Virus record (IMG/VR): IMGVR_UViG_3300020473_000016
Direction: 5' to 3' (one strand)
Origin: a virus
DNA length: 64,000 nt
Position numbers and translations under genes: made by a program. How positions within the stretch are numbered: the first letter of the stretch is position 1; each line of letters opens with the position of its first letter. Shown here piece after piece: positions 1-36,273 of this stretch. The notes below the pieces were generated by a model. That model made no database searches. It saw only the letters and a list, made by a program, of their open reading frames with translations, and was not told the origin of the DNA.

Positions 1-254
1 AAACACAATGCACCTACCCAAAACACTCCAAGTGACCACAACTCAACAACCCTATGACCTACACTTATCCACAACCCTATTCCTATTAATACTATCCATA
101 ACCAATCTAATGTACTATGGATTTGTTGCCATCTACTACCAAAGTCTTTAATCAGTTCTTGTCTTATTTGTGCGAATAGAGGTGATACATGTCTCATCAT
201 AACAAATCCTTCATTTAGAACCATTATCACGTATCCTATTATGAATATTATCAT
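1..254 (-). CDS. hypothetical membrane protein, partial (runs off the window start)
   Basis: ATG at 254; open frame MIIFIIGYVIMVLNEGFVMMRHVSPLF...WLWIVLIGIGLW with hydrophobic segments; not in ORF track. Confidence 0.6.
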   Translation of the reverse strand, partial: MIIFIIGYVIMVLNEGFVMMRHVSPLFAQIRQELIKDFGSRWQQIHSTLDWLWIVLIGIGLWISVGHRVVELWSLGVFWVGALC

Positions 255-363
255 TGTGTAGTTTATCTCTCTTTCTTAAGGGTGTTTTGTAACCATATTT
301 CAGGTCATGTTTTAATCGTTGCAAGTATTTAAGATGATCTTTAATCTCTTTGCTTGATATCAT
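211..363 (-). CDS. small basic hypothetical protein (50 aa)
   Basis: hand-translated MISSKEIKDHLKYLQRLKHDLKYG...; overlaps both neighbours. Confidence 0.35.
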   Translation of the reverse strand: MISSKEIKDHLKYLQRLKHDLKYGYKTPLRKRDKLHNDNIHNRIRDNGSK

Positions 364-532
364 ATTCAATAACGATCTTCTTACTTATTCGTCCAGTTGA
401 ATTGCTTGTTTCTAGTCTAGTCATGTTACCATTTAATAATGCTGTTAATGTTAATAGTTCGGATATGATCTCACCTTCATCAGTGTTCATATCACAATGC
501 TTTAGGTCAGTTAAATTTGAGTAATTATGCAT
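341..532 (-). CDS. hypothetical protein
   Basis: 63-aa ORF in the tightly packed minus-strand run. Confidence 0.6.
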   Translation of the reverse strand: MHNYSNLTDLKHCDMNTDEGEIISELLTLTALLNGNMTRLETSNSTGRISKKIVIEYDIKQRD

Positions 533-565
533 AGTTAATATATGTGTTAAAATGGGGTTAATTCA

Positions 566-573
566 TATAAATA
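566..573 (+). promoter_or_regulatory. T4-type late promoter
   Basis: exact TATAAATA about 70 nt upstream of plus-strand ORF 644. Confidence 0.5.
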
Positions 574-597
574 ATTATGTATTCAATCGAGGGCAAT

Positions 598-611
598 GTA
601 ACCAAATCTAC
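598..611. promoter_or_regulatory. NtcA-like box
   Basis: GTA-accaaatc-TAC is an exact GTA-N8-TAC, directly followed by TACATT (TAN3T). Confidence 0.4.
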
Positions 612-643
612 TACATTATGAGTTCAATTCAAAGAGAGGTCTT

Positions 644-19674: not shown

Positions 19675-22600
19675 TATAGTTCTGTTAACCACCAACCTTG
19701 ATATGCAGCAGGAATAAAGTTATTTCCGTCTGACGAACCTACGAATATTAATCCGAAGGAAGCATTCTTATTCTGGATCACGAGTTCACCTGATCCATAT
19801 GGTGTGGACAATCCACCCAACTTAGTACCCTCAGTATCACCTTGAATTGCAACTGGTTCTCCATTTACGATTGGAGCACGTACAACTAGAGAGTTGTTAT
19901 AAGTTAGTGAACCACCAACCTCAGTAAATCTAATGATGTCTCCTGTTTCAGGAGTAGATGGTAATGTTAATACCAATGCACCTGTAGAAGGAGCAACAGC
20001 AACAATATAATTTACATTACTTGTAATGTTAGCATTGCTGTTAACGAATGTAGACTTATGTCCACCATTCTTATTCTTCCAACCAGTGTAACCAAAGGCA
20101 TCAATAGAACAATCTTGATTGATTGTATAACCCTTAGTACCACCATCACCTAATTGTCTTACTGTTAGTATTTGCTGTGTACTTGAAGCAGTTGTAGCAG
20201 GAATACCAGCAACATCTAGTAAGCGACCAACATATGTATCACCATATTCAGGTTCAACACGGAATGTTGGATTAAATGTTTTATTAGTAAACTGAATTGC
20301 ATCAGGATCCTCAACACACTTACTTGGGAATACTCTTAGGAATCCACTTATGTCTGTAGCAGCATTAACAACTAACTTACCAGCTTCAAAGTGATGTTCA
20401 TCGTTATTCTGTATTGTTAAGATAGGTACGTTATTATCAGTACCCATGATGTCAAAGGAAGATCCAATGAACTTAACATCATCATATACTGTTAGACGAC
20501 CATGATGGAAGTTCTTCTTAACCATCTGGATACCACCATCAGTTGTGGCAGTATTGGTTACTTCAAAGATCTCATCACCTATCAATAATGCATAGAAACG
20601 ATCTAAGAAGAATGGAACTACATCAGAGTTCTTGACATTAACAGCGACAACTGAAGTTCCTGTACTTGGAATTGCATCCTCTAATACAGTTGTTTCTCTG
20701 GTAAGAACTCTCCATACAGTTTCACCATCAGAGTGTGTCTTAGCAGCACCAGGCCAGTTAGCAACGTTGTTAACACGAGTTACAGGTAAGTAACCAGCAG
20801 TACCAGATGTTACAACTGGAGTACCAGACACCTGCATGAATTCTTCATTACCACCAGATCCATAACCAACTAAGATAAAGTCATTGATAGCAAAATCTGT
20901 GACGTTATCAACTGTTAGTTGTGTTGCTGTTGTGCTTATTGGAGTTACAGTATCAACGAATGTTGTTGCAATTCCGTTATCAACTTTAGGATCCTTAAGT
21001 ACTGTGTAAACTGTAGCACCTTTAGCATGTGCAGCAGCAGTTGTACCCCACTTAGATCTTACAGTATAGATTGTACCACTTGGATTACCAAGTACAGTAT
21101 CACCACTGCAAGCATCAATACTAAAGACATCACGTACACGGTCAGTTATACTAAACTTCTCGTTAACAGATGCTCTGAGTGTTGCACCAGTAGCAGTACC
21201 AGCACCACCAAACGCTACGTTAAGTGTAACAGTACTACCAACAATACTTACGATCTGAGGATCAGTTTGTCTTGTTTGACCACCAGTAGTTACAAACTGG
21301 TTCTGTTCTAATGTTACAGCACCACCGTTACTACTCAACTCTACATAATCACCAACTTCAAGTCCTTGTGTGTTAGTGACGTTGGTAATAGTTGTAAGAT
21401 TTGCTTGAATATCACCAACAATGAATCCATCACCATTAGCAGTTTCTTTCCATGCAGTCTTACATCCACCAATGAAGTTCAATGAACCGTTAACAGTTAA
21501 CTTACCATTCTCTCCATCAACACCATCATTACCAACTATTACATTACCAGTTACAGTATCAACCTCGAACAATACGTTACCAGGACATCCATCAAGAACT
21601 TGGAAGTTCTTATTGTTCTGTGTAAGAGGTGTTGCAAGTTTGAATACTTCACCTTGATCAAAGATTCCGTTACCGTTAGTATCTTCACGATCAATAATAA
21701 CGTAATCTCTCTGTGTTTGTAATGTTCCACCGAATGATGCTAGGTAGATATTTTCCTGAACACCAGATGCATCAATTGCTTGCTCTGTCCAAGTACCATC
21801 AAATGCAATATTACACTTGTAGATTGGAGTCTTAGTAGTTAAAGTATCAGGATGATTAGTCTTAATTGCTGTGTAAGTACCAAGTGGTTGTCTCTGAACT
21901 GTTACGATATAAGGAGCAGAAGTTGCACCAGCTAATCCACCAGGTATAATCCTTACAATTTCAGGATGTGTTCCTGCATTAACATCTAATGGTGCGTCAA
22001 GGATCATATAATCCCCTTCAGCAAAGTAACTACCAGGATCAACTTCAAGTGGTAAGTAATACTGATCTCCACTTAGAGCAGGTAGATCTGTACCGCCAGG
22101 TCCCTCTCCAACTCTAAGTGCTTGCCATGTAGTTCCACCCCATTGTCCTGCACCAGTAGTATCAAGACGGTTCCAACCAGATTGTGATTGAGTTAACTCT
22201 AGTACGTTAATAATATCAACGTTCTTATTGTAGTTACCTACACCTAAGATACCGCTTGCGTGAGCAAATGCAGTAGATCCTAATGCTGCTCTATTACCAA
22301 TGAAGGAGAATGCAGCAGTACCACCACATAGTTTGACACTACCGTTAAGTGTTGTCTCACCATCAACTTCAAAGTTGTTTCTAACTGTAGTTGATCCACC
22401 TTGACCAGCAATATTAATTTCAGAAGCATTTAAACCAAAATCAATAGTCTGTGTGTTACCTGAGAAGAATGAAACAATACCTGCTTCAGTGTTAAGAGTT
22501 ACGGTCTGTTCTGGTTGTGTTCTATCACCACCAAGTATCTTGTCTGCACCAAATGTTGCGTCACCTGCGTAGGATACCTTTCTATTTCCAAACTTAACAT

Positions 22601-25600
22601 AGGATAGTGATTCGTTGTTACCGTATGCACCACCAATTTCAATCTTAGAAATGTTAGTTGCGGTATCAGCAATAGCACCAAAGAAGATGTTACTGTCAAC
22701 AGAAGCACTACCAATCTTGATAGTTTGTTGTCCTGTTACTGAATCACCAATGTCGATTGTCTGAGCTGCTGTTGTAGTATCACCAAGTGTTAATGCAGTT
22801 GCATCACCAGCAATATTAACTGTGGTTGCAGTAGTATTAACAACATTGAATGTTGTAGAAGCAGTAGTAAGATCTCCACCATCAATCTGAACATCTAGAT
22901 CAAATAGAGCATTACCAGTGAAATTAGAGGTTCCATTAACATATAAACCATAAGTAGATAGATTTGTATCTGTTGCATTGATACCAACCTGTCCAGTACC
23001 TACAGTATTAGAGGTCTTAACCCTTAATGTTGCTTGATTAAGAGGATTATCTGCATCACCACCAACTAGGAATGCATCAGCACGACCAGCCTTAGTACGA
23101 CTAGCAAACTCTGGCTCAGTTAAGAAGTCTGTAGTTGTTGTACCACTAATGAATGCACTACCAACAACATCTAAGTTTGCTCTAGGATTAGTATATGTAT
23201 CAACAAATCCAGTCGCATGAGAATCATGTGATGCTCTTGTGACAGTGTTAATACCGACTCTATAATCACCTATAGAACCAGCACCAGATGCTAGAGTGTT
23301 TCTAACAAGAGTTCTGATTGCATCAGCACCAACAACACCTAGTTCCTTAAATTCAGAAGTAGATACATATAATTTCGCTGAAGCATTTTGAGAAATAATT
23401 GTTGTCCAACTTATAACAGCCTGTGCCTGTGCAGTAGTTACTTGGAAGTGAACATAGTTATTTGCAGGGTCAAATGCATCTCCAGAAGGTGAGTAAACAG
23501 GCCAACCTTGAGGGATGTTTATTAATGAAACTGGGTAGTTAGTGAATCTAATTCTAGAAGCACTTGTAATACCAAGTGAAGAGTTAGATAACTGAACACC
23601 ACTTGCTTCAAATGTTAATTTAACTACGTTACTACCATCAAATGTTATTGTGAATATATTTGATCCTGCAATTTCACTGAAGTAGTTGGCATATATCCAA
23701 CCAAGTGATCCAGATTCTCCAACCTCATCACCCTTAAGTAGAATGTCACCAGACGTAGGCTGAACACCACCGTAAGAAATATCCTGATTAGAATTAATTC
23801 TAGTACCACCAGCATTAACCATGCTTGTCTGGTTAGGTGTCATATTTGTTGGAGCACCAGCAGAAGTGGTGTGGGTCTGAATCATATAATTCTGACCATC
23901 ACCTCTGGCGTTAAATCCAAATACAGCAGCATCTACTCTGTTCTTACTGATACGAATATCTCCTTTCGTAGCAGGAGTGAAGCTAGTTCTATCAAGACCT
24001 TCATCCTGTTCTAATAGAGTAACAGGATCAGTAGGACTTACATTAGAACGTATAATAAGTACGTCTCTATTCTGTATTAGATCATTATCTTGAACACTGA
24101 TTAATACAGGAGATTCAAATGTATTAACAAGACTTCCATTACCACCAACAACTGTTATATTCTGGTTGAATGTTACAGCAGTATCAAATGTGGTTACTAG
24201 ACCTCCTACTACGTCATCCTTATCTCCATCATCTTGTAGTGTAGCAGCGTCAAGGAAGGTCTCTTCGCCTGTGATAGCGTTGATCTTCTTGTTACCTATG
24301 TAAAGGTCTCCATTGGAGTTTAGACCTGTATAGAAGACTATACCACCATCTTGCTTCTTAGACTGAGCATAGAAGTCTTCAGTTGGTGTTAGTACAACTT
24401 CCTGTCTGATTGGAAGACCAGTTGAATAGTTACCTGGTCCGAAACCAAGATATTCAAACGTATGGTTACCTGCACGAGCAATAGATGGTCTACGGAATTC
24501 AACGTAGAACTTATCATCTGTCATTACTGTGCTTGTACCAGCAATAGGAATACGACGGTCTTCAGAACCAGATGTAGCATTACCACTCTGTGCCTGAACT
24601 GAGTAAGTATTCTCTATAAATGCTGATTGTCTAACTAGATCCTCAACACCTTCTCTTGTAGTAGAGTTCTTATAGTCGTTAACTGTAACTAAACCATGAG
24701 TATAGTTATCAGCAGCAGAATATGCTTGAGGTGGATCAACTAATCCAGCAAATACGTTTTTCTCTTCTGCTGTTGTACCAGACTTCTGGAACCAAAGAGG
24801 ATCGTTTCTGTAGTTTAGAGGATATAGTTTGCTAACTGGCTGGGAGAACTTGAAGCTCTTGAAGTTATTAACAACACCAGGTCCAGTTGGGAATGGAGAA
24901 ATGTTACCACGTAAGCAAGTTAGATAGTAAATACCTTCTTGCTGTCCGAAGATACGTTTCTGTAATGTCTCTACGTTAAAGATATAGAATGTATCTTCAA
25001 TGATACCTACATCATTTACACTATCAACGTAGTATTCAATACCAGCATCGTCAGTAATACGATCACCTGGTGTTATGGTGTAGACATTAGCACCATTTTG
25101 TCTGTAGTAGTACTCAGGATATCCCTTAGAGATAAGTCTCTTAAGTGGTAGTGACTTACCAAAGTCTTGATCCTCTACCATCTCAGCAAATACATTACCT
25201 TGTGTAAATCTTGTATTTGCAAAATCACTATACTCTAATTTTCCACCGCGGATATTTTTTAGGATTAGGTAGTGTGAACTTCCAACATTGTAATAAGCAT
25301 GTATATTAGCAAGACCAGAAGAATAACCAGTCCAACTAATTTCATTGGTGCTACTATTCTGTGTCTTATTCGCTACGAATGATCCACCTTGAGGAGCATC
25401 AATTCTAACAGTAGTGAAGATCTCATTCTTAAGACCAGGATAGTTAACAACATCAACTGCATGGTCAAAGACATTAAGTTCTAAGTACTTGATATTAGGA
25501 TCTAATGGATCTTCTACATAACGACCACTTTGAATAGTGGCTGTAATACCACTCGTAGTCTTAACAAATGCTCTATACTCAACACCAGCGTTAGTTAGAT

Positions 25601-28600
25601 CCTTCTTATATGGATCATACTTAGCAGGTACACTAAGTGAATTACTTGCGAAGTCTGCTTCAGTGTATCCAATGTACTCATTCTGTTGTCTTGGGTTCTT
25701 GAATCTAGCACCGTATACTGATCCAGTTACAGGCTTAAGTACAATCTTCTGAGGTATTAACTTACGAGTATCGTCAGTTCTTCCCTTGATAACGAATCCA
25801 TTGATAGGATCTCTTGCGTTCTCAATATCTTTTGGAATAACATAACGTAACTTGTATGTTCTTTCATTTGCTTCACGCTGATCTTTAAGACGCTCATACC
25901 ACATATCAGTAGTACGAGGAGTAGATGACATATCTGTCTGTTTGATTCTCCAGATGATATTGTCATAGAAAACAGATGAAGGTTGACCAGTAACATCATC
26001 CTTAACTTTGATGTACCACTTACCTGAAGTAGTAACAGCATCAGTAAAGGTTGGATCAAATGCCATTGGTGATCTACGCTTGTTAGCATAGGTTGTAAAC
26101 TTAATACCAGTTTGACCAGGATCAAATGTAATTCTTACATCATTCAGTGCATCTGCCTTGCTTAGGTGGATGGTGAATACTCTATCATTTTGATAGCGAA
26201 CATAGAATGATACGTTAGGGTTAAGTCTACCGAAATCTGGGCTGGAACTATTTGTTACAGCAACATTAGGATTATTTGCAAATGATGTAGATACTAATGG
26301 TAGTTGTGATCCTTCTTCAGGTCTAAAGAATACTTGTTGAGCATCAGTAGAAGTAGATGGTTTGTCAACGATGTTTGGTATCTCTGTCTCAAATCCACCG
26401 TTACCAGAGAATGCAGAGGTTGTTGCTAAGTTAGTTCTATATGAATGTAGATCATATGAATCATCTAATACAAACTGATAGATATCAATCTCTACATCAG
26501 GATCAACAGAAGTTGTTTCAGATGCATAGATGTAGATACCAGCAGCAGCATTCTCTCTAGATGTTGCAAGCATCAACTTAGTTTGGTCACTACCATCGAA
26601 GTAGGTTCCACCACTATAATCAATAGGTGATGTAGTTCTACCTGGAGAAATTACATAGTATGTTCTGTTAGTTTCAAATCCATTAGGTAGTCTAACAACA
26701 CGCTTATCAACATCAACATATTTCTTAGTTACAGTATCAAAACGAGGACGTGGAACCAACCTTACTGGTGTTCCTGTCTCGAAGTTATGTGCGTTAGATG
26801 ATCCAGTACCAGTTGTATCAATAGTGAATACTGTTGCTCTGGAAGCAAGTAATGATGTGTTAACTGTCTGCTCTTGACGAGTAACTGATCCAAGACCACT
26901 ACTAATGATAGTAGTAATGTTACCAATTAATGTGTTAATAGCAGCAGCAGTTGCAGCACACTCAGCGTTGCTAGAGTTAGTTGTTGAGTCTCTAGTAATA
27001 TCTCTGTCAGCATCAGTAACAGGTCCGATTACTTTAGTATCAGGTAATGTATCAGCCCATGCACCCTCACTATATGTGAAGTATAGATTGATTGAACTGC
27101 TACTTAGGATAGCATTAACAGTATTTCCTGTTACTAACTTAGATCCTTTAACACCCAATTCAATCTGAGTGTTGCTAACAATTCTCTTAACGTATGTTCC
27201 TTCAGGAATGGTTGTGTATATTGGTGTAACACCAGAAGACTTAAGTACACCTTGCTCATAAGGTGATACTCCAGACTCATCATATTCAACAACACTCATA
27301 CCGATAACCATACCGCTTGAGTCATTAACATCGACTATGGCAGATCCAGCAGTAGTTGTACAGTTGAATGCCAAGAAGTCAAAGTTCCTCATAGCTGCGG
27401 TACACATGTTACCGACATAGTTCCAAGCATCAATAGTCTCAGATGCTTGACCATCAACGAAGTCTAATTGAGCATTAACAAAGTATGCTTCACCAGCCTG
27501 TACACTGTTGATGTTACCACCAAGACGTAAGTCATTGACAACAGCATCTACGATGTAAGCAACGTCTCTGAAGCACTTAGAAGACTCATTGTTAATAGTA
27601 AAGTCACCCTTGTTAATTGTTGGTAGTCCATTAAGATTACCAGCAGTAATAGAATCTACAAGGATATCGAATAATGTTTCAATAGTATTTCTTACGTTAG
27701 CACAATCCCACTCACCATTGCTTACGCTAGGTAGATCATTAAGATTGCCAGCAAGTAAACTATCAGTAAAGACACCAATTAAAGTATCAACTGTAGAAAG
27801 AACCTCAGCACAATTACCTTGAGTATATGTGGTTGGTTGTGTTGGTTCTGTTCTTGTAATGCTGTTAAGGTTACCAACAGCAGCATCAGTACCTACACCC
27901 TGAATAATAATATCCATCAAGGTGTCTGTTGCTGATACCATAGAAGCACATGTAGGTGCATCAAATAGGTTGATCAATGTTAGATCTTTAACCTGTTGGT
28001 TAGTAGCATCAGGAGTCCAGTTGGTAGGTGTAACTGTTACGTTCTGAATTACATCTTCTACAACTGCTTTTACTTTCTTATAAACTTCAGCAACTTCTGT
28101 ACGCTCACTCTGTGGCATAAGAAGTGGAACACCATTGAAGTTATTAGTTACGAAACCATTACCTATATCATAGATCTTATGGTTACCACCATACTTCATG
28201 TTGTATGCTAAGTCTCTAACAACGTCATAAACGTCATCAAGACAATCTTGCTCTGTGTATCCAGCAGCAGGAGTATAAGAAGGATGAACTACCTTCATCT
28301 GTTCGTATGCTTCCTTAGCAATGAACTTAGAGTTAGCAAGAAGTAATACAGATACATCAGCATTAGCATCAGATACTATTGGTGGTTCACCAGTAGTGTC
28401 AGTAGTAATACTTGTATCTTTCTGTGATAGTTGGTTATTAATTGCAAGATTGATTTGATCTTGAATCTTATTCAAACCAACAACTGTTTGGTTAACCTCT
28501 CCTTGTACACCATTGCTTAGTAGTGCATTACCAGAGAAGTATGTCTTAAGATAAGAGATAGTGTACTCGTTACCACCGAACCAAAGATCTTGTGCTATAG

Positions 28601-31600
28601 CATCAATGATTCTACCTAAGTCTCTTCTACACTTAGTTTCATAGTTTGTAGAAGCATGGTTAGAATCGTATACATTGATAGCATTGATTGCTTCAGTGAT
28701 AATGTTATTCTTGTTAGCAAGTATAAGGTTGCGTGCATCCTTGTTACGGCTAGCATTTAGAGAAGAATCATCTCTAAAGATTGTAACTGCATTATTCTCA
28801 GCAGATACAAATGTGTGAGGATATTCACCACCTTGAATTACAAGTGCTCTCTCAATACCATTTGTTTGAGCAGATACAAATGTATGTGCAGTAGTATTTG
28901 TGGATGGAACATTCTTAAGAACTTGTACATCAAATGTATTTGAAGTTACATTAGAGATCTTTAACCACTTACCTGAAGATGGATCTGTTGCACGAGGATA
29001 AGTATGGTTTGTAGCATTACTATCCTGAGCACAAGTGAATGTTAGAGAGTTGTTTGCAATCTTAATATGCTCACCCTCTACAAAACCATGACCATTAACG
29101 GTCAATGTCATCACACCAGTAGAAGGATTGTAAACAGCATTAGTTGCTGTAGTTGTATTGCTGGTGTTAACGAATGTATGAGTGTAGTTACCTCCAGCGA
29201 TGACTGCTCCTGTTGCAGCAGATACAAATGTATGTGCTGTAGTATTAGAAGAAGTACCAACGTTAAGTGTAATACTATCTGAAGTTACAGATGCAATACT
29301 AATTGCAGTATCGTATGCAGGATCTCCAGATCTAGGATAGGTATGGTTAGTAGCATTGCTATCCTGATCACATGTAAATGTTAATGAGTTGTTACCTAGT
29401 TTTATAGATGTGCCAGCTGTAAGTGTGTGAGCACCAATTGTAAGTACCAAGACACCAGAGGTGGGATTGTAGGTAGCTCCACTAACATTGTAGTTAACAA
29501 TAGGAGATTGGCCAACGTTAACTGTGACTGTACCAGTCTGTCTTTCGAGTCCATTTGATGTAGCAGATACGAATGCATGAGTAGATGTTTCTGAAGTAGC
29601 ACCAACATTAACTTTGAATGTATCAGCAGTAACAGCAGAAATTTGTAACCACTTGCCACTTACAGGGTCAGTTGCTCTAGGATAAGTATGCTGAGAAGCA
29701 TTACCATCTAAAGCACAAGTCATTGTCAATGAATTGTCAGCGATCTTAACCATATCGCCATTAGCAAATCCATGAGCAGTGACTGTAAGAATTAATTCTC
29801 CAGTAGAAGGAGTATATGCAGCACCACTTACTGTATGATTTGTTGATCCAACTGCGGTAACATCTAATGCAGTGTTATACTTAGGATCAGTTGTTCTAGG
29901 ATAGGTATGGTTTGTACCATTATTATCCATACCACATGTAAAGGTTAAAGCATCTTTTGCTAACCTGATACTTGTTCCTACGTTAATAGTATGACTAGGA
30001 AGAGTAAGAACTAAGTCACCTGTTACAGGATTGTATGTGGCATTATTAATATCATATCCATTTGCCTGTGTCTTACCAACGTTAACAGTAATTGTATTGG
30101 TTGTAGTAGAACTAATAGGTAGTTTCTCACCATATACAGGATCAGTAGCACGAGGATATTTGTGCTGTGTAGCGTTGTTATCTTGAGCACATGTGAATGT
30201 TAATGAATCTGCATTAATGCTAAGTGAATCACCTGCTTTCTCGATACCATTAGCAGTTGCAGATACAAAGTTATGTGGATAGTTACCACCAGTTGTAATG
30301 GCATTAGCATTAGCACCAGCCCAAACATGAGTGTATGTTCCACCAGTCTTAACAGAACTTGCAACAGCACTAACAAATGAGTGTGCAGTTGTGTTAGAAG
30401 ATACACCAATGAATAACTTTATAGTACCACTCTGCTTGATTAATCCATTAGTGGATGCAGAAACAAATGAGTGTGTGTACTGGTCATTAACACCAGAGAT
30501 ACCTACATTAACTTCAAATGTATTTGCAGTCTTATTAGCAACAGTTAACCACTCATCATATGATGGGTCTGTTGTACGTGGGTAACTATGGTTAGTTGCG
30601 TTACTATCTTTAGAACATGTAAATGTTAGAGATTCCTTAGCAAACTTAATCTTGTCACCGTTGTTTAATCCATGACCATTAAGAGTTAATACCATTACAC
30701 CACTAGCAGGTGTATAAGTTGCACCAGTTACAGTAGCAGTTGTAGTACCAACTTCCTCAATGTAGATAGAGTTGTCATAGAATGGGTCTTTCTTATATGA
30801 TAGACCATTAGCACTTGCACTTACAAATGTATGTGCAGTTACGTTAGTAGAAGGTTGTTGTGCTAGTACTTGTACTTGGAAAGTATTTGTTTGTACATTA
30901 AAGATCTTCAACCACTTACCACTTACAGGGTCGGATGCTCTTGGATATGTGTGGTTAGTATTGTTACTGTCTTGAGCACAAGTAAATGTTAATGAATCAT
31001 CTGCTAACTTGATTTGCTCACCATTATTAAATCCATGATTAGCAATAGTTAGTTCTAAGATACCAGTAGTAGGATTGTAGTCTGCATCAGTTACAGTTGC
31101 AGTCTCTACAGTAGTTCTAGGATAACTGTGGTTAGTTGCGTTACCATCCTGAGCACAGGTAAAGGTTACAGCACCATCAGCTAACTTGATACTATCATTA
31201 GGTTTAGTAATACTGTTGGCAGCAGCAGAAACAAAACTATGTGTAGTTGTGTTTGTAGAAGGTACTGCGGCTAATACTTGTACATCAAATGTATCTGTAG
31301 TTACACCACTAATCTCTAACCATGAACCACTTACAGGGTCAGTAGCACGAGGATATGAGTGGTTAGTACCATTACTATCTTGATCACAAGTAAAGGTTAA
31401 AGCACCATCATCAATTCTAACTTTCTCTCCATTCTGGAAACCATGTCCAGCAACAGTGATTGTAATAATACCTGTATTAGGATTATAGTTAGCAGCAGTT
31501 GGTGTATATCTATCAGCACCACGTAGATTATGCTGACCAATGGTTAGTTCCATCAAACCTGTTGTAGGTACAAAGGAAGCATTGGAAGGAGTATATTCTA

Positions 31601-34600
31601 CAAGAGGTGATGCTCCAACATTAACTGTTATACTATTTGAAGTAGTTCCTGTAATCTGTATTGCTTCACCAGATACAGGGTCAGTTAGTCTTGGATATGA
31701 ATGAACTGAAGAATAGTCATCCATTGAGCAGGTAAACTTCAATGAGTTATCTGCAATCTTAATGAATGTACCAGTCTGTAAAGTGTGACTACCTATTAGT
31801 AATTCTAGATCACCTGTGGTAGCATTGTAAGTACCTTGTTGAGGAGTGAAGTTAACAGTAGGAGATGCTCCAACGTTTACATCAACTGTATTCGTTGTTG
31901 CTCCTGTAATTGTTAACCATGCTCCACTAGCAGGGTCGGATGCTCTAGGATAAGTATGATTAGTATAATCTCCATCCATTCCACATGTGAATGTTAGAGA
32001 ATCATCTGCAATCTTTATCTTATCTCCATCAGTGTATCCATGATTAGGAATAGTTAGTGTTAATAAACCATTACCAGGAGTGTATGATGCATTAGTTGCT
32101 GTAGTTGTAGCAGATCCAGTAAATCCATGACTAGCAATAGTTAATACTAAATCTCCAGTCTCAGCATTGTAAGTAGCACCTGTTGGTGTATAAGAAACAG
32201 ATGGGTTTGCTGGATCAACAGTAATAGTATTGTCAGATACTGTTAATAGATTAGCAATTGCTTGCTTACAATAATCTTTTGCTCTATTGAAAGCATATAC
32301 AGATTCTTCTTCCTCACCTAACAATCCATTTGATAGAGGAGTTCCATCTGGGTTGAAATATGTCTTGGTTGTAGCAATAATATTAGCGTTACCACCATCT
32401 CTTAAATCTTCTGAGATAGAATCAATAACATATCCAATGTCTCTCTTACACTTAGCTTCAGAAGAGGCATGTGAAGGAGCATACTCAAGAGTCTTAGACC
32501 ATGCACCATCTATAATTTCTTGTCTGTTTGCCTGTATTAAATTACGTGCATCTGCATATCTATTTGCAGCAGGATCTAGTCCTGGATTGACATAAGATAC
32601 GTTTCTAAGAGCAGGATATTTCTCTAGGATATAACCAAATACTTCCTCCTGCATCATGCGACGGTTGCTTTCAATTAAGTTAGCAGCGTCAGCAAATGCG
32701 TTATTAACTGATAATCCAGAAGGATTAAGTATAGAACCCTTAGCGATGTACTTAACAAATCCTGTTGGTTCTAATCTTGCATTGAATAGACCACCATGAC
32801 CTTGATAAGATGGTTCCATCTTAACAAATAGTTTCTCATCAGACTTAGCACCAAGTCTATATCCTGTAATTGTTGCAGCAGGACGATTATTTGGATCACC
32901 TAAGTCATCACTACCTAAGAATAACTTAGTATAGTTGTTTGTATCCTGTATAGTACCAGCAATATCAACGGTATAATACTGAACCTTCTCTGTGTTAGCA
33001 GCATTATCTGTAATCTTTTGTGGTGGGATAATATCTGTAATGTATCCACCCTTATCTTGGTTAAAGGAGAATCCTTTAAATCCTTTAGCATGTAATGATG
33101 TATTACCGAAGTTACTGTTAGAGTTGGTGATACTCATGTCACCACCAGACTCCATCAAGAAGTGATCGGCATAACCAACAGCGAAGATACTAACACACTG
33201 GATGAATGAATCTTCAGATGCTCTAACGTGGAAGTTTCTCCACTCATCTTTCCAATAAGAATCACCCTTAGTATGATAAGGTACTGTTGCAAATGCATCT
33301 GTTAATGATGCTTGGTTCCAAGTATTTGAGTACTCATCATATCTAATGAATGCTCTATCGTCTTGTTGTAGTGATACACCTGTATACTGAGCAATAACAA
33401 CTGACTTAAATCCAGTTGCTTTTAGACCATTAGCCCAGATACCACAAATACCCCATGTTGAACGGATGGAGCAGTTAAAGACGTATGGAGATGCAGATTC
33501 AACAGAGTCAACCTCTGCTAATGTCTGTGCATTCTGACCTAATGCAGGAGTTGAGTTTATATCAACAGTTTTGCCAGAGTTAATATTAGTACCAATGGCA
33601 GCAGTTACAGAAGGTACTTCGTAAATGAATTTACGAGGATCATTCTGATCAATTTCTTTGATTGGGAATATACCTTCAAGTATATCATCAATCTCTGTAC
33701 TTGATATAGCAACAAATTGACCTTGGAAGTACCCATGATCAACTTTAGTAGTTACTTCAACCTCTGTAGTAGATGCAGGGATAGAGGGATCAGTAGTATT
33801 ATCAGTGAACTTTAAAGACTCAATTATACGAGAGTCAGATAAAGGACCAACGATTCTGTTTTCTTGAACTCTAGGAGCAAACTCACCAGGATCATCAATA
33901 GTAGGTTGATATGAAGAAAATGCCTTAGCAACCTTTCTATAATATAAACCTAATTCTTCTGAATCAGCATATTCAAATACTGTTAGTTTATGGTGAGAAT
34001 AATTAGGAGCAGCTTTCTTAGTGAAATCATTAGGGTCATAATAAACTTCACCAGTACCAGCAGAGGCATTGTAAAGAGGAGATTCAGAACTTGTTTGACC
34101 ATCCTTAATAGTAAATTGCCAGAAATAGCAACCACCAGTAACATTGAAAATAGCAGAACGAGGGATATCTCTTTCAGTTACAGCAGGATCGGGAACATAT
34201 AGAGGACGTAGAGTAGTTCTACGAAGATCATAACCAACAAGTGAGGAACCACGAGGGATTATAGCACCACCCTCAGTGTTGTTAAACTTATAGAATATAT
34301 TATCAGGGTTGGATACATCTAGAATTGAATTATCTGTCCAAGCAGCATTTGCTTGATCAAATCCAAATACATCAATACCACTAGTGTCTACTAGACCTGG
34401 TCTATTGTCAATATAATGGATACCAGGCATCAACATGATAGTGAACTGATCGAACCTATCATTATCGAATCCTGGAAGGTATGAATACCTTGCAATCTCT
34501 ATAAAAGCACGCTGAATGCTCTTAAATGGTGTTACAGGTGAATTACCTCTATTAGATAAAGCATCTGTTGCGTTGAAATCATCGGGTGAAACATACAAAT

Positions 34601-34649
34601 ACTTACCAGTCTTACTACTGATAAGATTATCCAGTCTTGTTAATGGCAT
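19674..34649 (-). CDS. giant (4991 aa) virion structural / tail fibre protein
   Basis: single ORF under TATAAATA; N-terminal beta-helix-like region; internal repeats; T/G/N-rich fibre-like C-terminal half. Confidence 0.85.
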   Translation of the reverse strand: MPLTRLDNLISSKTGKYLYVSPDDFNATDALSNRGNSPVTPFKSIQRAFIEIARYSYLPGFDNDRFDQFTIMLMPGIHYIDNRPGLVDTSGIDVFGFDQANAAWTDNSILDVSNPDNIFYKFNNTEGGAIIPRGSSLVGYDLRRTTLRPLYVPDPAVTERDIPRSAIFNVTGGCYFWQFTIKDGQTSSESPLYNASAGTGEVYYDPNDFTKKAAPNYSHHKLTVFEYADSEELGLYYRKVAKAFSSYQPTIDDPGEFAPRVQENRIVGPLSDSRIIESLKFTDNTTDPSIPASTTEVEVTTKVDHGYFQGQFVAISSTEIDDILEGIFPIKEIDQNDPRKFIYEVPSVTAAIGTNINSGKTVDINSTPALGQNAQTLAEVDSVESASPYVFNCSIRSTWGICGIWANGLKATGFKSVVIAQYTGVSLQQDDRAFIRYDEYSNTWNQASLTDAFATVPYHTKGDSYWKDEWRNFHVRASEDSFIQCVSIFAVGYADHFLMESGGDMSITNSNSNFGNTSLHAKGFKGFSFNQDKGGYITDIIPPQKITDNAANTEKVQYYTVDIAGTIQDTNNYTKLFLGSDDLGDPNNRPAATITGYRLGAKSDEKLFVKMEPSYQGHGGLFNARLEPTGFVKYIAKGSILNPSGLSVNNAFADAANLIESNRRMMQEEVFGYILEKYPALRNVSYVNPGLDPAANRYADARNLIQANRQEIIDGAWSKTLEYAPSHASSEAKCKRDIGYVIDSISEDLRDGGNANIIATTKTYFNPDGTPLSNGLLGEEEESVYAFNRAKDYCKQAIANLLTVSDNTITVDPANPSVSYTPTGATYNAETGDLVLTIASHGFTGSATTTATNASYTPGNGLLTLTIPNHGYTDGDKIKIADDSLTFTCGMDGDYTNHTYPRASDPASGAWLTITGATTNTVDVNVGASPTVNFTPQQGTYNATTGDLELLIGSHTLQTGTFIKIADNSLKFTCSMDDYSSVHSYPRLTDPVSGEAIQITGTTSNSITVNVGASPLVEYTPSNASFVPTTGLMELTIGQHNLRGADRYTPTAANYNPNTGIITITVAGHGFQNGEKVRIDDGALTFTCDQDSNGTNHSYPRATDPVSGSWLEISGVTTDTFDVQVLAAVPSTNTTTHSFVSAAANSITKPNDSIKLADGAVTFTCAQDGNATNHSYPRTTVETATVTDADYNPTTGILELTIANHGFNNGEQIKLADDSLTFTCAQDSNNTNHTYPRASDPVSGKWLKIFNVQTNTFQVQVLAQQPSTNVTAHTFVSASANGLSYKKDPFYDNSIYIEEVGTTTATVTGATYTPASGVMVLTLNGHGLNNGDKIKFAKESLTFTCSKDSNATNHSYPRTTDPSYDEWLTVANKTANTFEVNVGISGVNDQYTHSFVSASTNGLIKQSGTIKLFIGVSSNTTAHSFVSAVASSVKTGGTYTHVWAGANANAITTGGNYPHNFVSATANGIEKAGDSLSINADSLTFTCAQDNNATQHKYPRATDPVYGEKLPISSTTTNTITVNVGKTQANGYDINNATYNPVTGDLVLTLPSHTINVGTSIRLAKDALTFTCGMDNNGTNHTYPRTTDPKYNTALDVTAVGSTNHTVSGAAYTPSTGELILTVTAHGFANGDMVKIADNSLTMTCALDGNASQHTYPRATDPVSGKWLQISAVTADTFKVNVGATSETSTHAFVSATSNGLERQTGTVTVNVGQSPIVNYNVSGATYNPTSGVLVLTIGAHTLTAGTSIKLGNNSLTFTCDQDSNATNHTYPRSGDPAYDTAISIASVTSDSITLNVGTSSNTTAHTFVSAATGAVIAGGNYTHTFVNTSNTTTATNAVYNPSTGVMTLTVNGHGFVEGEHIKIANNSLTFTCAQDSNATNHTYPRATDPSSGKWLKISNVTSNTFDVQVLKNVPSTNTTAHTFVSAQTNGIERALVIQGGEYPHTFVSAENNAVTIFRDDSSLNASRNKDARNLILANKNNIITEAINAINVYDSNHASTNYETKCRRDLGRIIDAIAQDLWFGGNEYTISYLKTYFSGNALLSNGVQGEVNQTVVGLNKIQDQINLAINNQLSQKDTSITTDTTGEPPIVSDANADVSVLLLANSKFIAKEAYEQMKVVHPSYTPAAGYTEQDCLDDVYDVVRDLAYNMKYGGNHKIYDIGNGFVTNNFNGVPLLMPQSERTEVAEVYKKVKAVVEDVIQNVTVTPTNWTPDATNQQVKDLTLINLFDAPTCASMVSATDTLMDIIIQGVGTDAAVGNLNSITRTEPTQPTTYTQGNCAEVLSTVDTLIGVFTDSLLAGNLNDLPSVSNGEWDCANVRNTIETLFDILVDSITAGNLNGLPTINKGDFTINNESSKCFRDVAYIVDAVVNDLRLGGNINSVQAGEAYFVNAQLDFVDGQASETIDAWNYVGNMCTAAMRNFDFLAFNCTTTAGSAIVDVNDSSGMVIGMSVVEYDESGVSPYEQGVLKSSGVTPIYTTIPEGTYVKRIVSNTQIELGVKGSKLVTGNTVNAILSSSSINLYFTYSEGAWADTLPDTKVIGPVTDADRDITRDSTTNSSNAECAATAAAINTLIGNITTIISSGLGSVTRQEQTVNTSLLASRATVFTIDTTGTGSSNAHNFETGTPVRLVPRPRFDTVTKKYVDVDKRVVRLPNGFETNRTYYVISPGRTTSPIDYSGGTYFDGSDQTKLMLATSRENAAAGIYIYASETTSVDPDVEIDIYQFVLDDSYDLHSYRTNLATTSAFSGNGGFETEIPNIVDKPSTSTDAQQVFFRPEEGSQLPLVSTSFANNPNVAVTNSSSPDFGRLNPNVSFYVRYQNDRVFTIHLSKADALNDVRITFDPGQTGIKFTTYANKRRSPMAFDPTFTDAVTTSGKWYIKVKDDVTGQPSSVFYDNIIWRIKQTDMSSTPRTTDMWYERLKDQREANERTYKLRYVIPKDIENARDPINGFVIKGRTDDTRKLIPQKIVLKPVTGSVYGARFKNPRQQNEYIGYTEADFASNSLSVPAKYDPYKKDLTNAGVEYRAFVKTTSGITATIQSGRYVEDPLDPNIKYLELNVFDHAVDVVNYPGLKNEIFTTVRIDAPQGGSFVANKTQNSSTNEISWTGYSSGLANIHAYYNVGSSHYLILKNIRGGKLEYSDFANTRFTQGNVFAEMVEDQDFGKSLPLKRLISKGYPEYYYRQNGANVYTITPGDRITDDAGIEYYVDSVNDVGIIEDTFYIFNVETLQKRIFGQQEGIYYLTCLRGNISPFPTGPGVVNNFKSFKFSQPVSKLYPLNYRNDPLWFQKSGTTAEEKNVFAGLVDPPQAYSAADNYTHGLVTVNDYKNSTTREGVEDLVRQSAFIENTYSVQAQSGNATSGSEDRRIPIAGTSTVMTDDKFYVEFRRPSIARAGNHTFEYLGFGPGNYSTGLPIRQEVVLTPTEDFYAQSKKQDGGIVFYTGLNSNGDLYIGNKKINAITGEETFLDAATLQDDGDKDDVVGGLVTTFDTAVTFNQNITVVGGNGSLVNTFESPVLISVQDNDLIQNRDVLIIRSNVSPTDPVTLLEQDEGLDRTSFTPATKGDIRISKNRVDAAVFGFNARGDGQNYMIQTHTTSAGAPTNMTPNQTSMVNAGGTRINSNQDISYGGVQPTSGDILLKGDEVGESGSLGWIYANYFSEIAGSNIFTITFDGSNVVKLTFEASGVQLSNSSLGITSASRIRFTNYPVSLINIPQGWPVYSPSGDAFDPANNYVHFQVTTAQAQAVISWTTIISQNASAKLYVSTSEFKELGVVGADAIRTLVRNTLASGAGSIGDYRVGINTVTRASHDSHATGFVDTYTNPRANLDVVGSAFISGTTTTDFLTEPEFASRTKAGRADAFLVGGDADNPLNQATLRVKTSNTVGTGQVGINATDTNLSTYGLYVNGTSNFTGNALFDLDVQIDGGDLTTASTTFNVVNTTATTVNIAGDATALTLGDTTTAAQTIDIGDSVTGQQTIKIGSASVDSNIFFGAIADTATNISKIEIGGAYGNNESLSYVKFGNRKVSYAGDATFGADKILGGDRTQPEQTVTLNTEAGIVSFFSGNTQTIDFGLNASEINIAGQGGSTTVRNNFEVDGETTLNGSVKLCGGTAAFSFIGNRAALGSTAFAHASGILGVGNYNKNVDIINVLELTQSQSGWNRLDTTGAGQWGGTTWQALRVGEGPGGTDLPALSGDQYYLPLEVDPGSYFAEGDYMILDAPLDVNAGTHPEIVRIIPGGLAGATSAPYIVTVQRQPLGTYTAIKTNHPDTLTTKTPIYKCNIAFDGTWTEQAIDASGVQENIYLASFGGTLQTQRDYVIIDREDTNGNGIFDQGEVFKLATPLTQNNKNFQVLDGCPGNVLFEVDTVTGNVIVGNDGVDGENGKLTVNGSLNFIGGCKTAWKETANGDGFIVGDIQANLTTITNVTNTQGLEVGDYVELSSNGGAVTLEQNQFVTTGGQTRQTDPQIVSIVGSTVTLNVAFGGAGTATGATLRASVNEKFSITDRVRDVFSIDACSGDTVLGNPSGTIYTVRSKWGTTAAAHAKGATVYTVLKDPKVDNGIATTFVDTVTPISTTATQLTVDNVTDFAINDFILVGYGSGGNEEFMQVSGTPVVTSGTAGYLPVTRVNNVANWPGAAKTHSDGETVWRVLTRETTVLEDAIPSTGTSVVAVNVKNSDVVPFFLDRFYALLIGDEIFEVTNTATTDGGIQMVKKNFHHGRLTVYDDVKFIGSSFDIMGTDNNVPILTIQNNDEHHFEAGKLVVNAATDISGFLRVFPSKCVEDPDAIQFTNKTFNPTFRVEPEYGDTYVGRLLDVAGIPATTASSTQQILTVRQLGDGGTKGYTINQDCSIDAFGYTGWKNKNGGHKSTFVNSNANITSNVNYIVAVAPSTGALVLTLPSTPETGDIIRFTEVGGSLTYNNSLVVRAPIVNGEPVAIQGDTEGTKLGGLSTPYGSGELVIQNKNASFGLIFVGSSDGNNFIPAAYQGWWLTEL
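26920..32705 (-). other. four nested phycobiliprotein (globin-fold)-like domains within the giant fibre
   Basis: KCKRDIGY, KCRRDLGR, DCLDDVYD and KCFRDVAY each followed by GGN; four helix-H-like motifs TCASMV, GNCAEV, WDCANV, AECAAT. Confidence 0.55.
28785..32195 (-). repeat. 11 copies of an about 100-aa beta-rich domain, recursively nested
   Basis: 11 x TFTC..D.N..NH.YPR and 11 x H.FV-type closing strands counted in the translation. Confidence 0.85.
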
Positions 34650-36258: not shown

Positions 36259-36273
36259 ATGTGCTATAGAGGC

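What the first reader, a model, noticed from the sequence alone, without database searches (positions are those of the whole stretch)
28785..32195. Recursive self-insertion of an about 100-aa domain, 11 copies up to five levels deep
SEEN: the repeat has ordered segments a (Y.P.TG.L.LTI..H), b (TFTC..D.N..NH.YPR), c (DP..G..L.I), d (T..VNVG) and e (H.FVSA..NG). The copies are not tandem. Domains open, are interrupted at a/b, b/c, c/d or d/e loops by further copies, and close later with stacked e strands (e.g. HSFVSAVASSV-KTGG-TYTHVWAG...-TTGG-NYPHNFVSATANG). I count 11 b motifs and 11 e motifs, which parse as balanced brackets: D0[D1[D2[D3[D4,D5,D6]]], D7[D8,D9,D10]]. The whole block is itself inserted in one of the phycobiliprotein-like domains. 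Each copy carries one Cys (TFTC) and several His. INFERENCE: a branched rather than linear fibre head, grown by repeated in-frame insertion into loops; a possible Cys/His metal site.
Basis: partly seen in the sequence, partly recalled or inferred. Interest (0 to 1): 0.8.

Follow-up and report, generated by a model that had tools for sequence, protein, structure and literature searches.

The report
Self-nested beta-barrel domains in phage fibre
A giant tail-fibre-like protein of a marine cyanobacterial virus carries 11 copies of a roughly 100-residue beta-barrel domain inserted into one another five levels deep, and related viruses show many other nesting trees (up to eight levels), which makes this a natural system for studying how proteins grow by domain insertion.

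Summary
Residues 820-1955 of a 4991-aa virion/fibre-like protein (window 19674-34649, minus strand) are fully accounted for by 11 copies of one ~100-aa domain. Six copies are contiguous. Five are split by complete copies lying in their loops. The tree is D0[D1[D2[D3[D4,D5,D6]]],D7[D8,D9],D10], so D10 is a child of D0, not of D7.

Repeated removal of full-length HMM hits recovers all 11 copies in five rounds with no residue left over. None of 300 block permutations does this. AlphaFold2 folds D7[D8,D9] at pLDDT 92.9. The leaves match small beta-barrels (phi92 endosialidase inserted barrel, Z 8.5), and split host D2 matches an FNR-type barrel across its 415-residue insertion.

Of 76 related IMG/VR marine viral loci, 67 carry split copies, in 44 different trees, up to depth 8. 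Insertions cluster in four loops. Relatives 89% identical differ by exactly one guest copy. Cultured phage P-RSM6 has the architecture.

The block lies between two complete helical repeat units, not inside one. "Phycobiliprotein-like" is unsupported. One precedent exists, cyanobacterial RNA polymerase Si3 (6 levels); I found none for phages. Function (multivalent adhesion, Cys/His site) is inferred only. The scan noted this same stretch before (e1-5829893).

The parts
19674..34649 (-). Giant ORF, 4991 aa (P0001). Virion structural / tail-fibre-like protein that carries the nested block.
   Evidence: PHROG matches to tail fibre / short tail fibre / virion structural protein families. No Pfam family.
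28785..32192 (-). Whole nested block, residues 820-1955: 11 copies in the tree D0[D1[D2[D3[D4,D5,D6]]],D7[D8,D9],D10].
   Evidence: AF2 whole-block model has mean pLDDT 76.2.
32109..32192 (-). D0 segment a (res 820-847), outermost host
   Evidence: spliced D0 scores 107.9 bits over HMM columns 2-100. AF2 pLDDT about 75.
30054..30242 (-). D0 segments b-d (res 1470-1532)
   Evidence: AF2 pLDDT 53-69, the weakest part of the model.
28785..28853 (-). D0 closing segment e (res 1933-1955, ...IQGGEYPHTFVSAENNAV)
   Evidence: AF2 pLDDT about 50.
31851..32108 (-). D1 segments a-d (res 848-933), inserted in the D0 a/b loop
   Evidence: spliced D1 scores 127.5 bits
30243..30296 (-). D1 closing segment e (res 1452-1469, TTGGNYPHNFVSATANGI)
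31596..31850 (-). D2 segments a-d (res 934-1018), inserted in the D1 d/e loop
   Evidence: 94.9 bits. In the AF2 model D2 matches an FNR FAD-binding barrel over model range 112..635, that is including its distant e strand (row 47).
30297..30350 (-). D2 closing segment e (res 1434-1451, KTGGTYTHVWAGANANAI)
31509..31595 (-). D3 segment a (res 1019-1047), inserted in the D2 d/e loop. D3 is split into four pieces.
   Evidence: spliced D3 scores 86.8 bits
31104..31208 (-). D3 segment b (res 1148-1182)
30741..30800 (-). D3 segment c (res 1284-1303)
30351..30440 (-). D3 segments d-e (res 1404-1433)
31209..31508 (-). D4, contiguous leaf (res 1048-1147), in the D3 a/b loop
30801..31103 (-). D5, contiguous leaf (res 1183-1283), in the D3 b/c loop
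30441..30740 (-). D6, contiguous leaf (res 1304-1403), in the D3 c/d loop
29841..30053 (-). D7 segments a-c (res 1533-1603), inserted in the D0 d/e loop
   Evidence: 94.4 bits. AF2 of D7[D8,D9]: pLDDT 84-94 here.
29496..29546 (-). D7 segment d (res 1702-1718)
   Evidence: A continuous strand runs from the end of D8 into this piece.
29157..29201 (-). D7 closing segment e (res 1817-1831, IAGGNYTHTFVNTSN)
   Evidence: pLDDT 81-88
29547..29840 (-). D8, contiguous leaf (res 1604-1701), in the D7 c/d loop
   Evidence: Matches the phi92 endosialidase barrel at Z 8.5, rmsd 1.8 A over 75 aa.
29202..29495 (-). D9, contiguous leaf (res 1719-1816), in the D7 d/e loop
28854..29156 (-). D10, contiguous leaf (res 1832-1932), in the D0 d/e loop after D7
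32214..32567 (-). Helical repeat unit immediately upstream of the block (res 695-812)
   Evidence: 44% identical over 120 aa to the unit downstream
28398..28754 (-). Helical repeat unit immediately downstream of the block (res 1966-2084)

Best explanation
SHOWN.
- The block is a tree of 11 homologous ~100-residue domains within one polypeptide.
- Five copies (D0, D1, D2, D3, D7) are hosts. Their sequence is interrupted at one to three of four permissive loops by complete copies of the same domain. These loops are a/b after HGF, b/c after YPR, c/d and d/e.
- Nesting reaches five levels.

PREDICTED.
- Each copy, split or not, folds as a small beta-barrel whose N- and C-termini lie next to each other. 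This is what allows a copy to sit in a loop of another copy, and allows recursion.
- At c/d junctions the host strands run on into the first and last strands of the guest as a two-stranded ribbon.

INFERRED.
- The whole 1136-residue tree enters and leaves at one point of the linker between two helical repeat units of a giant virion fibre-like protein. It would therefore form a compact lateral bush of barrels rather than lengthening the fibre.
- The tree grows and shrinks in evolution by in-frame gain or loss of whole copies or sub-trees in those loops. Relatives carry dozens of different trees.
- Most likely function: multivalent, low-affinity adhesion to host cell-surface polymers. The closest solved fold is the lectin-like barrel inserted in phage endosialidases (the lectin-like role is from my own knowledge of endoNF, not a tool result).
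- The invariant Cys/His/His(/Asp) plus Tyr-Pro-Arg set may be a metal or ligand site that could also clamp the separated pieces of split hosts.
For: Sequence parse.
- An HMM from contiguous copies maps every fragment to the expected model segment.
- Iterative excision gives 11 full-length copies, 5 rounds and 0 residues left. This happened in 0 of 300 permutations.
- The spliced copies align end to end at 37-69% identity.

Structure prediction.
- AF2 of D7[D8,D9] has mean pLDDT 92.9, with the split D7 pieces at 81-94. Continuous strands cross the host-guest junctions.
- The whole block has pLDDT 76.2. The closing strands of D3, D2 and D1 are mostly at 72-84, with one block at 59.
- Leaves match small barrels: 4hiz_A 256-339 at Z 8.5 (rmsd 1.8 A over 75 aa) and the UBA1 FCCH domain at Z 8.2.
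- Split host D2 matches an FNR FAD-binding barrel over model range 112..635, with 78 aa aligned (Z 5.1, rmsd 4.0 A). This is comparable to how leaves match the same family.

Comparative evidence.
- 67 of 76 related loci have split copies. There are 44 distinct trees, with depth up to 8.
- The same tree occurs in independent contigs L001 and L002 at 81% identity.
- Junctions cluster at HMM columns 26-28, 55-57, 70-73 and 82-87.
- L017 carries a 111-aa guest inside a host that is uninterrupted in L027, which is 88.8% identical overall. A 424-aa (four-copy) indel separates L012 from L073.
- 75 of 111 hosts with a d/e insertion return through a GG.Y.H linker, against 0 of 313 contiguous copies.
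- Cys42 and Tyr-Pro-Arg 53-55 are 100% conserved, Asp58 and His90 99%, and His23 95%, in 616 unique copies that include hosts.

Virion context.
- PHROG tail-fibre / virion-structural matches, with fibre and baseplate genes as neighbours.
- BFVD matches are cyanophage structural proteins.
Against: - All structural evidence is prediction. Model coordinates could not be inspected, so strand pairings of split hosts are known only indirectly, from pLDDT, DSSP strings and one VIA row for D2 at a modest Z of 5.1.
- The outermost host D0 is poorly predicted (pLDDT 49-69).
- A covariation test of nested versus crossed assignment of stacked closing strands was inconclusive (19 of 34, p 0.6). Strand exchange between stacked hosts, as described for Si3 (PMC11515920), is therefore not excluded.
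- Many related loci leave partial HMM hits unassigned. 'Always balanced' is shown only for 11 ORFs.
- The direction of the L017/L027 difference (gain or loss) is ambiguous, because the guest's orthologue also occurs in more distant L029 and L035.
- No evidence bears on binding, metal content or position in the virion.
- Best fold matches of Z about 8 are within the range the tool says is common for models with no clear relative.
Confidence: 0.8

Rival explanations
1. Interdigitated (domain-swapped) array. The copy counts balance, but some closing e strands are exchanged between stacked hosts. For example, the first e after D3 would close D1 instead of D3. The barrels would then be crossed rather than strictly nested, as reported for parts of cyanobacterial RNA polymerase Si3.
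For: - Closing e strands are interchangeable at sequence level. Permuting them still gives 11 full copies in 26 of 200 trials.
- The covariation test could not tell nested from crossed (19 of 34).
- PMC11515920 states that recursively inserted HABAS domains in Si3 are in some cases domain swapped.
Against: - The innermost copy of every tower keeps the normal short d-e loop (S.NTTAH), the same as contiguous leaves. Outer closings carry a distinct GG.Y.H return linker. This fits nesting.
- In the AF2 model, D2's barrel match ends at model residue 635, which is the position of the nested partner (model 615-632), not the crossed one.
Confidence: 0.12
2. Ordinary linear repeat array with decayed fragments. 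On this view the partial pieces are remnants of degraded tandem copies or linkers, not parts of split domains. Each contiguous ~100-aa stretch would be the only folded unit.
For: Six copies are contiguous and fold on their own. Many related loci leave unassigned partial hits.
Against: - The fragments add up exactly to five more full-length copies, with no residue over. This happened in 0 of 300 permutations.
- The invariant Cys, YPR, Asp and His residues are kept in the fragments.
- The fragments are predicted with pLDDT 70-94.
- The same balance is found in ten other ORFs with different trees.
Confidence: 0.03
3. Function only. The bush of barrels is a passive structural ornament (bulk, rigidity, protease resistance or a spacer on the fibre) with no ligand binding. 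The invariant residues would serve only folding or stability.
For: - The invariant residues are identical in all 616 copies. That is what a fold-stabilising site looks like, not a specificity-determining one.
- Copy number and tree shape vary freely among relatives.
- No sequence similarity to any characterised binding domain was found.
Against: - The closest solved fold is the barrel inserted in a phage endosialidase. From my own knowledge, in endoNF that barrel binds sialic acid.
- From general knowledge, rapid diversification of copy number in fibre proteins is typical of host-recognition modules.
- Neither point is a test.
Confidence: 0.3
4. Assembly artefact. On this view the repeats were mis-joined by the assembler, creating an apparent nesting.
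For: Repeated sequence is a known cause of misassembly.
Against: - The copies are only 37-69% identical in protein, too divergent to confuse an assembler.
- The ORF is intact over 14.9 kb.
- An identical tree occurs in two independent metagenome contigs at 81% identity (L001, L002), and nesting also occurs in the cultured phage P-RSM6.
Confidence: 0.01

Closest known systems
Si3 insertion of cyanobacterial RNA polymerase beta' (SBHM / HABAS domains). PMC10895346, PMC11515920, PMC13114784.
   Same: - Several homologous small beta-rich domains sit in one polypeptide.
- Some are continuous and others are assembled from distant sequence segments because copies are inserted into copies.
- Si3 has eight SBHMs, four of them discontinuous, and is described as a 6-level recursive insertion. 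A survey of 48,551 insertion events reports this as its deepest case.
- The whole array is itself an insertion at one point of its carrier.
   Different: - Different carrier: a virion fibre-like protein rather than the RNAP trigger loop.
- More copies: 11 here, at least 19 in relatives.
- Deeper nesting in relatives: 7-8 levels.
- Among the sampled relatives the tree differs widely (44 trees in 76 loci).
- Homology of the domain to SBHM/HABAS was not found. No RNAP chain appears among the top rows of either the Foldseek or the VIA searches. That result is inconclusive, not negative.
Beta-barrel domain inserted in the beta-propeller of phage endosialidases (phi92, PDB 4hiz_A residues 256-339)
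   Same: - Best structural match of the leaf domains: Z 8.5, rmsd 1.8 A over 75 residues, 17% identity.
- It is a phage fibre/spike protein.
- The barrel is itself an inserted domain with adjacent termini.
   Different: - Single copy, not nested.
- No detectable sequence similarity.
- The TFTC...H.YPR..DP...H.FVSA signature was not examined in that structure.
First catalytic cysteine half-domain (FCCH) of ubiquitin-activating enzyme E1 (4p22_B, 2v31), and FAD-binding barrels of ferredoxin-reductase-type enzymes
   Same: Small six-stranded barrels of about 80-100 residues, matched at Z 8.2 (FCCH) and Z 5.5-6.5 (FNR family) by both leaves and split host D2. From my own knowledge, FCCH is also an inserted domain.
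   Different: Unrelated functions and sequences. Z values are near the tool's background for common arrangements, so only a fold class is indicated.
Tandem Ig-like / FN3 / BIG decoration domains of phage fibres and capsids ('beads on a string')
   Same: Repeated ~100-residue beta domains on phage surface proteins. From general knowledge they are thought to mediate weak adhesion.
   Different: Those arrays are linear, with each domain contiguous. Here 5 of 11 copies (and 317 of 753 in relatives) are discontinuous hosts, so the geometry is a tree, not a string.

Membership tests
Recursively nested homologous-domain insertion (type example: cyanobacterial RNAP Si3) | Several homologous copies of one domain in a single polypeptide | tested here: met
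   11 copies, each matching the full HMM at 87-171 bits. Pairwise identity is 37-69%.
Recursively nested homologous-domain insertion (type example: cyanobacterial RNAP Si3) | Some copies are discontinuous and interrupted by complete copies of the same domain. The segments balance as brackets over at least 2 levels. | tested here: met
   Five split hosts, 5 levels, no residue left after excision. Achieved in 0 of 300 permutations.
Recursively nested homologous-domain insertion (type example: cyanobacterial RNAP Si3) | Split copies fold into the same three-dimensional domain as contiguous ones | tested here: inconclusive
   Prediction only.
- D7 pieces have pLDDT 81-94, with the same strand order as D8 and D9.
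- D2 matches an FNR barrel over model range 112..635, 78 aa aligned, Z 5.1.
- D0 is poorly predicted.
Recursively nested homologous-domain insertion (type example: cyanobacterial RNAP Si3) | The repeated domain is an SBHM / HABAS domain | tested here: inconclusive
   No RNAP chain appears among the listed Foldseek or VIA matches. No profile-profile comparison with SBHM sequences was run.
Small six-stranded beta-barrel of the endosialidase-insert / FCCH / FNR FAD-binding type | Superposition on solved members over most of the domain | tested here: met
   4hiz_A at Z 8.5, rmsd 1.8 A over 75 aa. 4p22_B at Z 8.2. FNR-type barrels at Z 5.5-6.5. These Z values are only at the upper edge of the tool's stated background.
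Small six-stranded beta-barrel of the endosialidase-insert / FCCH / FNR FAD-binding type | Detectable sequence homology to a member | tested here: not met
   A profile search of PDB sequences gave a best E of 0.45, to an unrelated IPT domain. No Pfam family was found.
Phycobiliprotein (Pfam PF00502) for the flanking helical units | Match to the family profile or to solved phycobiliprotein sequences | tested here: not met
   No Pfam hit for the whole protein at E up to 1. phmmer of residues 1956-2240 against PDB gives allophycocyanin alpha-B as the top hit, but at E 1.8.
Linear tandem Ig-like/FN3-type fibre decoration array | Every repeat unit is contiguous in sequence | tested here: not met
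   5 of 11 copies are split into 2-4 pieces, separated by 98-620 residues.

The most novel reading that the evidence does not exclude
Marine T4-like phages may carry a previously unnamed barrel domain that acts as both host and guest of itself. Whole copies and sub-trees would be gained and lost quickly enough that close relatives differ, giving self-similar, branched receptor-binding 'bushes' up to eight levels deep. That exceeds the 6-level Si3 case, which a 48,551-event survey reports as its deepest. An invariant Cys/His/His/Asp site would staple the discontinuous barrels together and/or bind the host ligand. This would be a general, evolvable route to multivalency distinct from tandem repetition.
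Probability: 0.35. Interest if true: 0.88.

Novelty: new variant of a known kind. Interest (0 to 1): 0.78.

Why it matters
Domain insertion is usually one level deep. A 2026 survey of 48,551 insertion events reports a 6-level case, cyanobacterial RNA polymerase Si3, as its deepest (PMC13114784). This phage family adds three things.

1. A second, independent and much more variable example: 44 trees in 76 loci, depth up to 8, and 317 split hosts among 753 copies.
2. Pairs of close relatives that differ by a single guest. The steps by which proteins grow through insertion can therefore be reconstructed rather than guessed.
3. A cultured phage that carries the architecture (P-RSM6, 8573-aa protein), so it can be tested at the bench.

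It also matters for other fields.
- Annotation: the domain has no Pfam model. Only 708 clusters among 1.84 billion representatives hold it. Linear domain callers will report the split hosts as fragments.
- Protein design: the permissive loops and return linkers define rules for building branched multi-domain proteins.
- Cyanophage biology: these giant fibre-like proteins are likely host-range determinants of viruses that infect the most abundant phototrophs in the ocean.

Tried and rejected
- Complex prediction was planned as a split-barrel complementation test: D7 a-c piece (residues 1533-1603) against the rest (1604-1831), using alignments A4 and A5.
- The fold search library 'atlas' was not installed. 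The protein-atlas search was busy and did not hold the sequence.
- Foldseek of the three-domain model against PDB gave only TM below 0.2. This is uninformative for a multi-domain query.
- A broader HMM built from 358 contiguous copies was less sensitive for outer hosts than the six-copy seed HMM. I kept the seed HMM.
- A covariation (mutual-information) test of nested versus crossed pairing of stacked closing strands gave 19 of 34, p 0.6. It has no discriminating power.
- I looked for signs of recent intragenic duplication. Hosts and their own guests are not each other's closest paralogues (D1-D2 49%, D2-D3 37%). A recent copy-into-self event in this window is therefore not supported.
- The source of the L017 guest could not be resolved. 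Its nearest relatives are orthologous guests in L029 and L035 at 66-67% identity, so gain and loss cannot be told apart.
- Four literature searches looked for a description of this architecture in phage proteins and two for cyanomyovirus structure or virion-protein papers. None was found. Sullivan et al. 2010 (PMC3037559) does not mention it under the search terms used. The library misses most subscription-journal papers.
- No RNA polymerase Si3 chain appeared among the listed structural matches. This does not exclude a relationship.

Full report
WHAT IS THERE.
The finding lies in one ORF on the minus strand, window 19674-34649, encoding 4991 aa. Pfam finds no family in it. PHROGs match its N-terminal 600 residues and its C-terminal 2400 residues to tail-fibre, short-tail-fibre and virion-structural families. 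The middle matches repeat-rich 'virion structural protein' families.

Neighbouring genes are fibre-like and baseplate genes, plus typical cyanophage auxiliary genes. By DNA similarity the window belongs to a T4-like cyanomyovirus. The nearest isolate is Prochlorococcus phage P-RSM6, at only about 69-78% identity. The finding's coordinates correspond to residues 820-1955.

CHECKING THE OBSERVATION.
Regular expressions for the five segments find b, c and e 11 times each. They find a and d 9 times strictly and 11 times with relaxed spelling. No hit lies outside residues 820-1955.

I built an HMM from the six contiguous copies only. Every other fragment in the block then aligned to the part of the model that the nesting hypothesis predicts.

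The formal test was iterative excision: remove every full-length hit, close the gap, and search again. New full-length copies appeared in each of five rounds.
- D3 came from four pieces (86.8 bits).
- D7 came from three pieces (94.4 bits).
- D2 scored 94.9 bits, D1 127.5 bits and D0 107.9 bits.
- Not one residue of 820-1955 remained.

As a control I permuted the 21 blocks 300 times. Eleven copies were never recovered (mode 7). The spliced copies align end to end at 37-69% identity.

The tree is D0[D1[D2[D3[D4,D5,D6]]],D7[D8,D9],D10]. The domain occurs nowhere else in the window.

STRUCTURE PREDICTION.
AlphaFold2 on D7[D8,D9] used seven natural sequences of the same topology plus 122 contiguous copies as the alignment. 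Mean pLDDT was 92.9 and pTM 0.66. The three separated pieces of D7 scored 81-94. D7 shows the same order of strands as D8 and D9. Single long strands run from D7's c strand into D8, and from D8's last strand into D7's d strand.

The whole block gave mean pLDDT 76.2. Leaves were at 75-90. Hosts D1-D3 and their closing strands were mostly at 70-89. The outermost D0 was weak, at 49-69.

Model coordinates are not exposed, so I used structure searches as a proxy.
- The leaves match small six-stranded barrels. The best match is the barrel inserted in phage phi92 endosialidase (Z 8.5, rmsd 1.8 A over 75 residues). Next is the FCCH domain of E1 enzymes (Z 8.2). FNR-type FAD-binding barrels follow (Z 5.5-6.5).
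- In the whole-block search one row aligns an FNR barrel to model range 112..635, with 78 residues aligned. This is exactly the span of split host D2 (a-d at model 115-199, e at 615-632). The score is like those of the leaves against the same family.

This is indirect evidence that the predicted D2 barrel is closed by a strand 415 residues downstream. It is prediction, not experiment.

RELATIVES.
A pattern search of IMG/VR with the domain alignment returned 76 loci, each with one giant ORF carrying the domain. The same parser gave these results:
- 67 loci have split copies.
- There are 753 copies, of which 317 are split hosts.
- There are 44 distinct bracket strings.
- Maximum depth per locus runs from 1 to 8.
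- L052 reaches depth 7 with all copies at 73-136 bits and nothing left over. L073 reaches depth 8.

L001 and L002 are independent contigs, 81% identical to the window in the block and 93-95% identical in the flanks. Both have the same tree. Many loci still leave partial hits unassigned, so perfect balance is demonstrated for 11 ORFs only.

Junctions fall in four clusters of HMM columns: 26-28, 55-57, 70-73 and 82-87. Hosts with a d/e insertion mostly return through a GG.Y.H linker (75 of 111). That linker is never seen in contiguous copies (0 of 313).

Close relatives differ by whole units.
- L017 has a complete 111-aa copy inside the b motif of a host. That host is uninterrupted in L027 (88.8% identical overall) and in L034.
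- L012 lacks a 424-aa four-copy stretch that is present in L073 and L031.
- The direction of the first event is ambiguous.

The cultured phage P-RSM6 encodes an 8573-aa virion structural protein with at least 13 copies nested five deep. Among prokaryote genome assemblies the domain turns up mainly on marine MAG and SAG contigs, plus one Nonlabens isolate contig. Nesting is present there too. In a library of 1.84 billion representative proteins only 708 match at E up to 0.001. The best viral predicted-structure matches are cyanophage structural proteins.

CONSERVED RESIDUES.
In 616 unique copies, hosts included, conservation is as follows:
- Cys42, Tyr53, Pro54 and Arg55: 100%.
- Asp58 and His90: 99%.
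- Gly14: 98%.
- His23: 95%.
- Asp45: 91%.

A Cys/His/His/Asp metal site is a reasonable guess, but its geometry was not testable here.

FLANKS.
The helical unit before the block (residues 695-812) and the one after it (1966-2084) are complete paralogues (44% identity over 120 residues, E 7e-29). The match includes their tails. The block therefore lies in an inter-unit linker, not inside a unit.

'Phycobiliprotein-like' is not supported. There is no Pfam hit. The top PDB sequence hit is an allophycocyanin subunit, but at E 1.8.

HOW IT MOST LIKELY WORKS.
Shown: a balanced tree of homologous domains, with a small set of insertion points, and whole-unit differences between relatives.

Predicted: barrels with adjacent termini, with the split hosts closing.

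Inferred:
- A nested tree begins and ends at one point. The 1136 residues therefore form a lateral cluster on the fibre rather than extending it.
- The cluster offers many copies of one conserved site for weak, multivalent contact with the host surface. This is by analogy with the endosialidase barrel and with phage decoration domains generally (my own knowledge).
- Growth is by in-frame insertion or loss of copies or sub-trees. I could not identify the DNA mechanism.

Rivals:
- Partial strand exchange between stacked hosts. This is not excluded: the covariation test gave 19 of 34, and Si3 shows such swaps.
- A purely structural role.
- Decayed tandem repeats. Disfavoured.
- Misassembly. Disfavoured.

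COMPARISON WITH WHAT IS KNOWN.
Recursive insertion of a domain into its own homologues is documented for the Si3 region of cyanobacterial RNA polymerase.
- Si3 has eight SBHM domains, four of them discontinuous (PMC10895346).
- The domains are described as recursively inserted and partly swapped HABAS domains (PMC11515920).
- A survey of 48,551 insertion events reports Si3 as a 6-level case, its deepest (PMC13114784).

I found no report of such an architecture in a phage protein. The phage case differs in carrier, in fold as far as could be tested, in copy number, in depth, and above all in how much the tree varies between relatives. I therefore rate it a new variant of a known kind.

The scan had already noted the same stretch with the same reading (e1-5829893). 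That note was unchecked, and it is now tested.

Noticed in passing
window 34691-37670 (minus strand): Directly upstream of the giant gene lie a tryptophan-halogenase-like ORF (34691-35761), an endonuclease-V-like ORF, a CpeT-like antenna-protein gene (36274-36801) and a 2OG-Fe(II) oxygenase (37092-37670). Another note of this scan links CpeT to the helical units of the fibre. I saw nothing that tests that idea.
   Followed up: no
window 27930-28784 and 32193-32582 (P0001 residues about 690-812 and 1956-2240): There are at least two clear tandem helical units of about 120 aa, and a possible third by eye. They carry a K-C-x-R-D-x-G-x-x-I-D...DL..GGN motif. The two units flanking the block are 44% identical. 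The top PDB sequence hit is allophycocyanin alpha-B, but at E 1.8, and there is no Pfam family. Their fold was not predicted here.
   Followed up: partly
L093 (NC_020855.1 103907-129628, Cyanophage P-RSM6 CPXG_00128): An 8573-aa annotated 'virion structural protein' of a cultured Prochlorococcus phage. It carries at least 13 copies of the domain in the tree () (()) () (((()))), with six partial hits still unassigned.
   Followed up: partly
L084 (NZ_RMVE01000006.1, Nonlabens xiamenensis strain 1Q3, 188-kb contig): A 3496-aa ORF in a flavobacterial isolate assembly carries five copies in the tree () (), about 47% identical to the window's domain. Whether it is a prophage, a contaminating phage contig or a bacterial gene was not examined.
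   Followed up: no
L017 ORF residues 2841-3058 compared with L027 residues 3491-3591: A guest copy sits inside the conserved b motif itself, between ..SCKKD and ..HLYPR. This is a fifth, rarer insertion site (HMM column about 48). The guest is present or absent between relatives that are 89% identical.
   Followed up: yes
L060 (ORF 3767-18565, 4933 aa): This locus has homologues of both flanks of the window's block (50-55% identity), but they lie only about 286 residues apart. Its domain copies lie further downstream. The position of the barrel cluster along the fibre is therefore not fixed.
   Followed up: no
L078/L079 (QCLS01000003.1, Prochlorococcus sp. AG-418-C09 single-cell assembly, 189,106 bp) and L041 (IMGVR_UViG_2716884766_000001, 189,106 bp): A contig filed under a Prochlorococcus single-cell genome has the same length as an IMG/VR viral genome, and it carries two separate ORFs with the domain. 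It is probably a cyanophage genome caught inside the sorted cell.
   Followed up: no
P0001 copies D4, D5, D10 (window 31209-31508, 30801-31103, 28854-29156): Three leaves form a sub-type with the d segment 'VQVL..PSTN' instead of 'VNVG'. They are each other's closest paralogues (63-69% identity), although they sit in different branches of the tree.
   Followed up: partly
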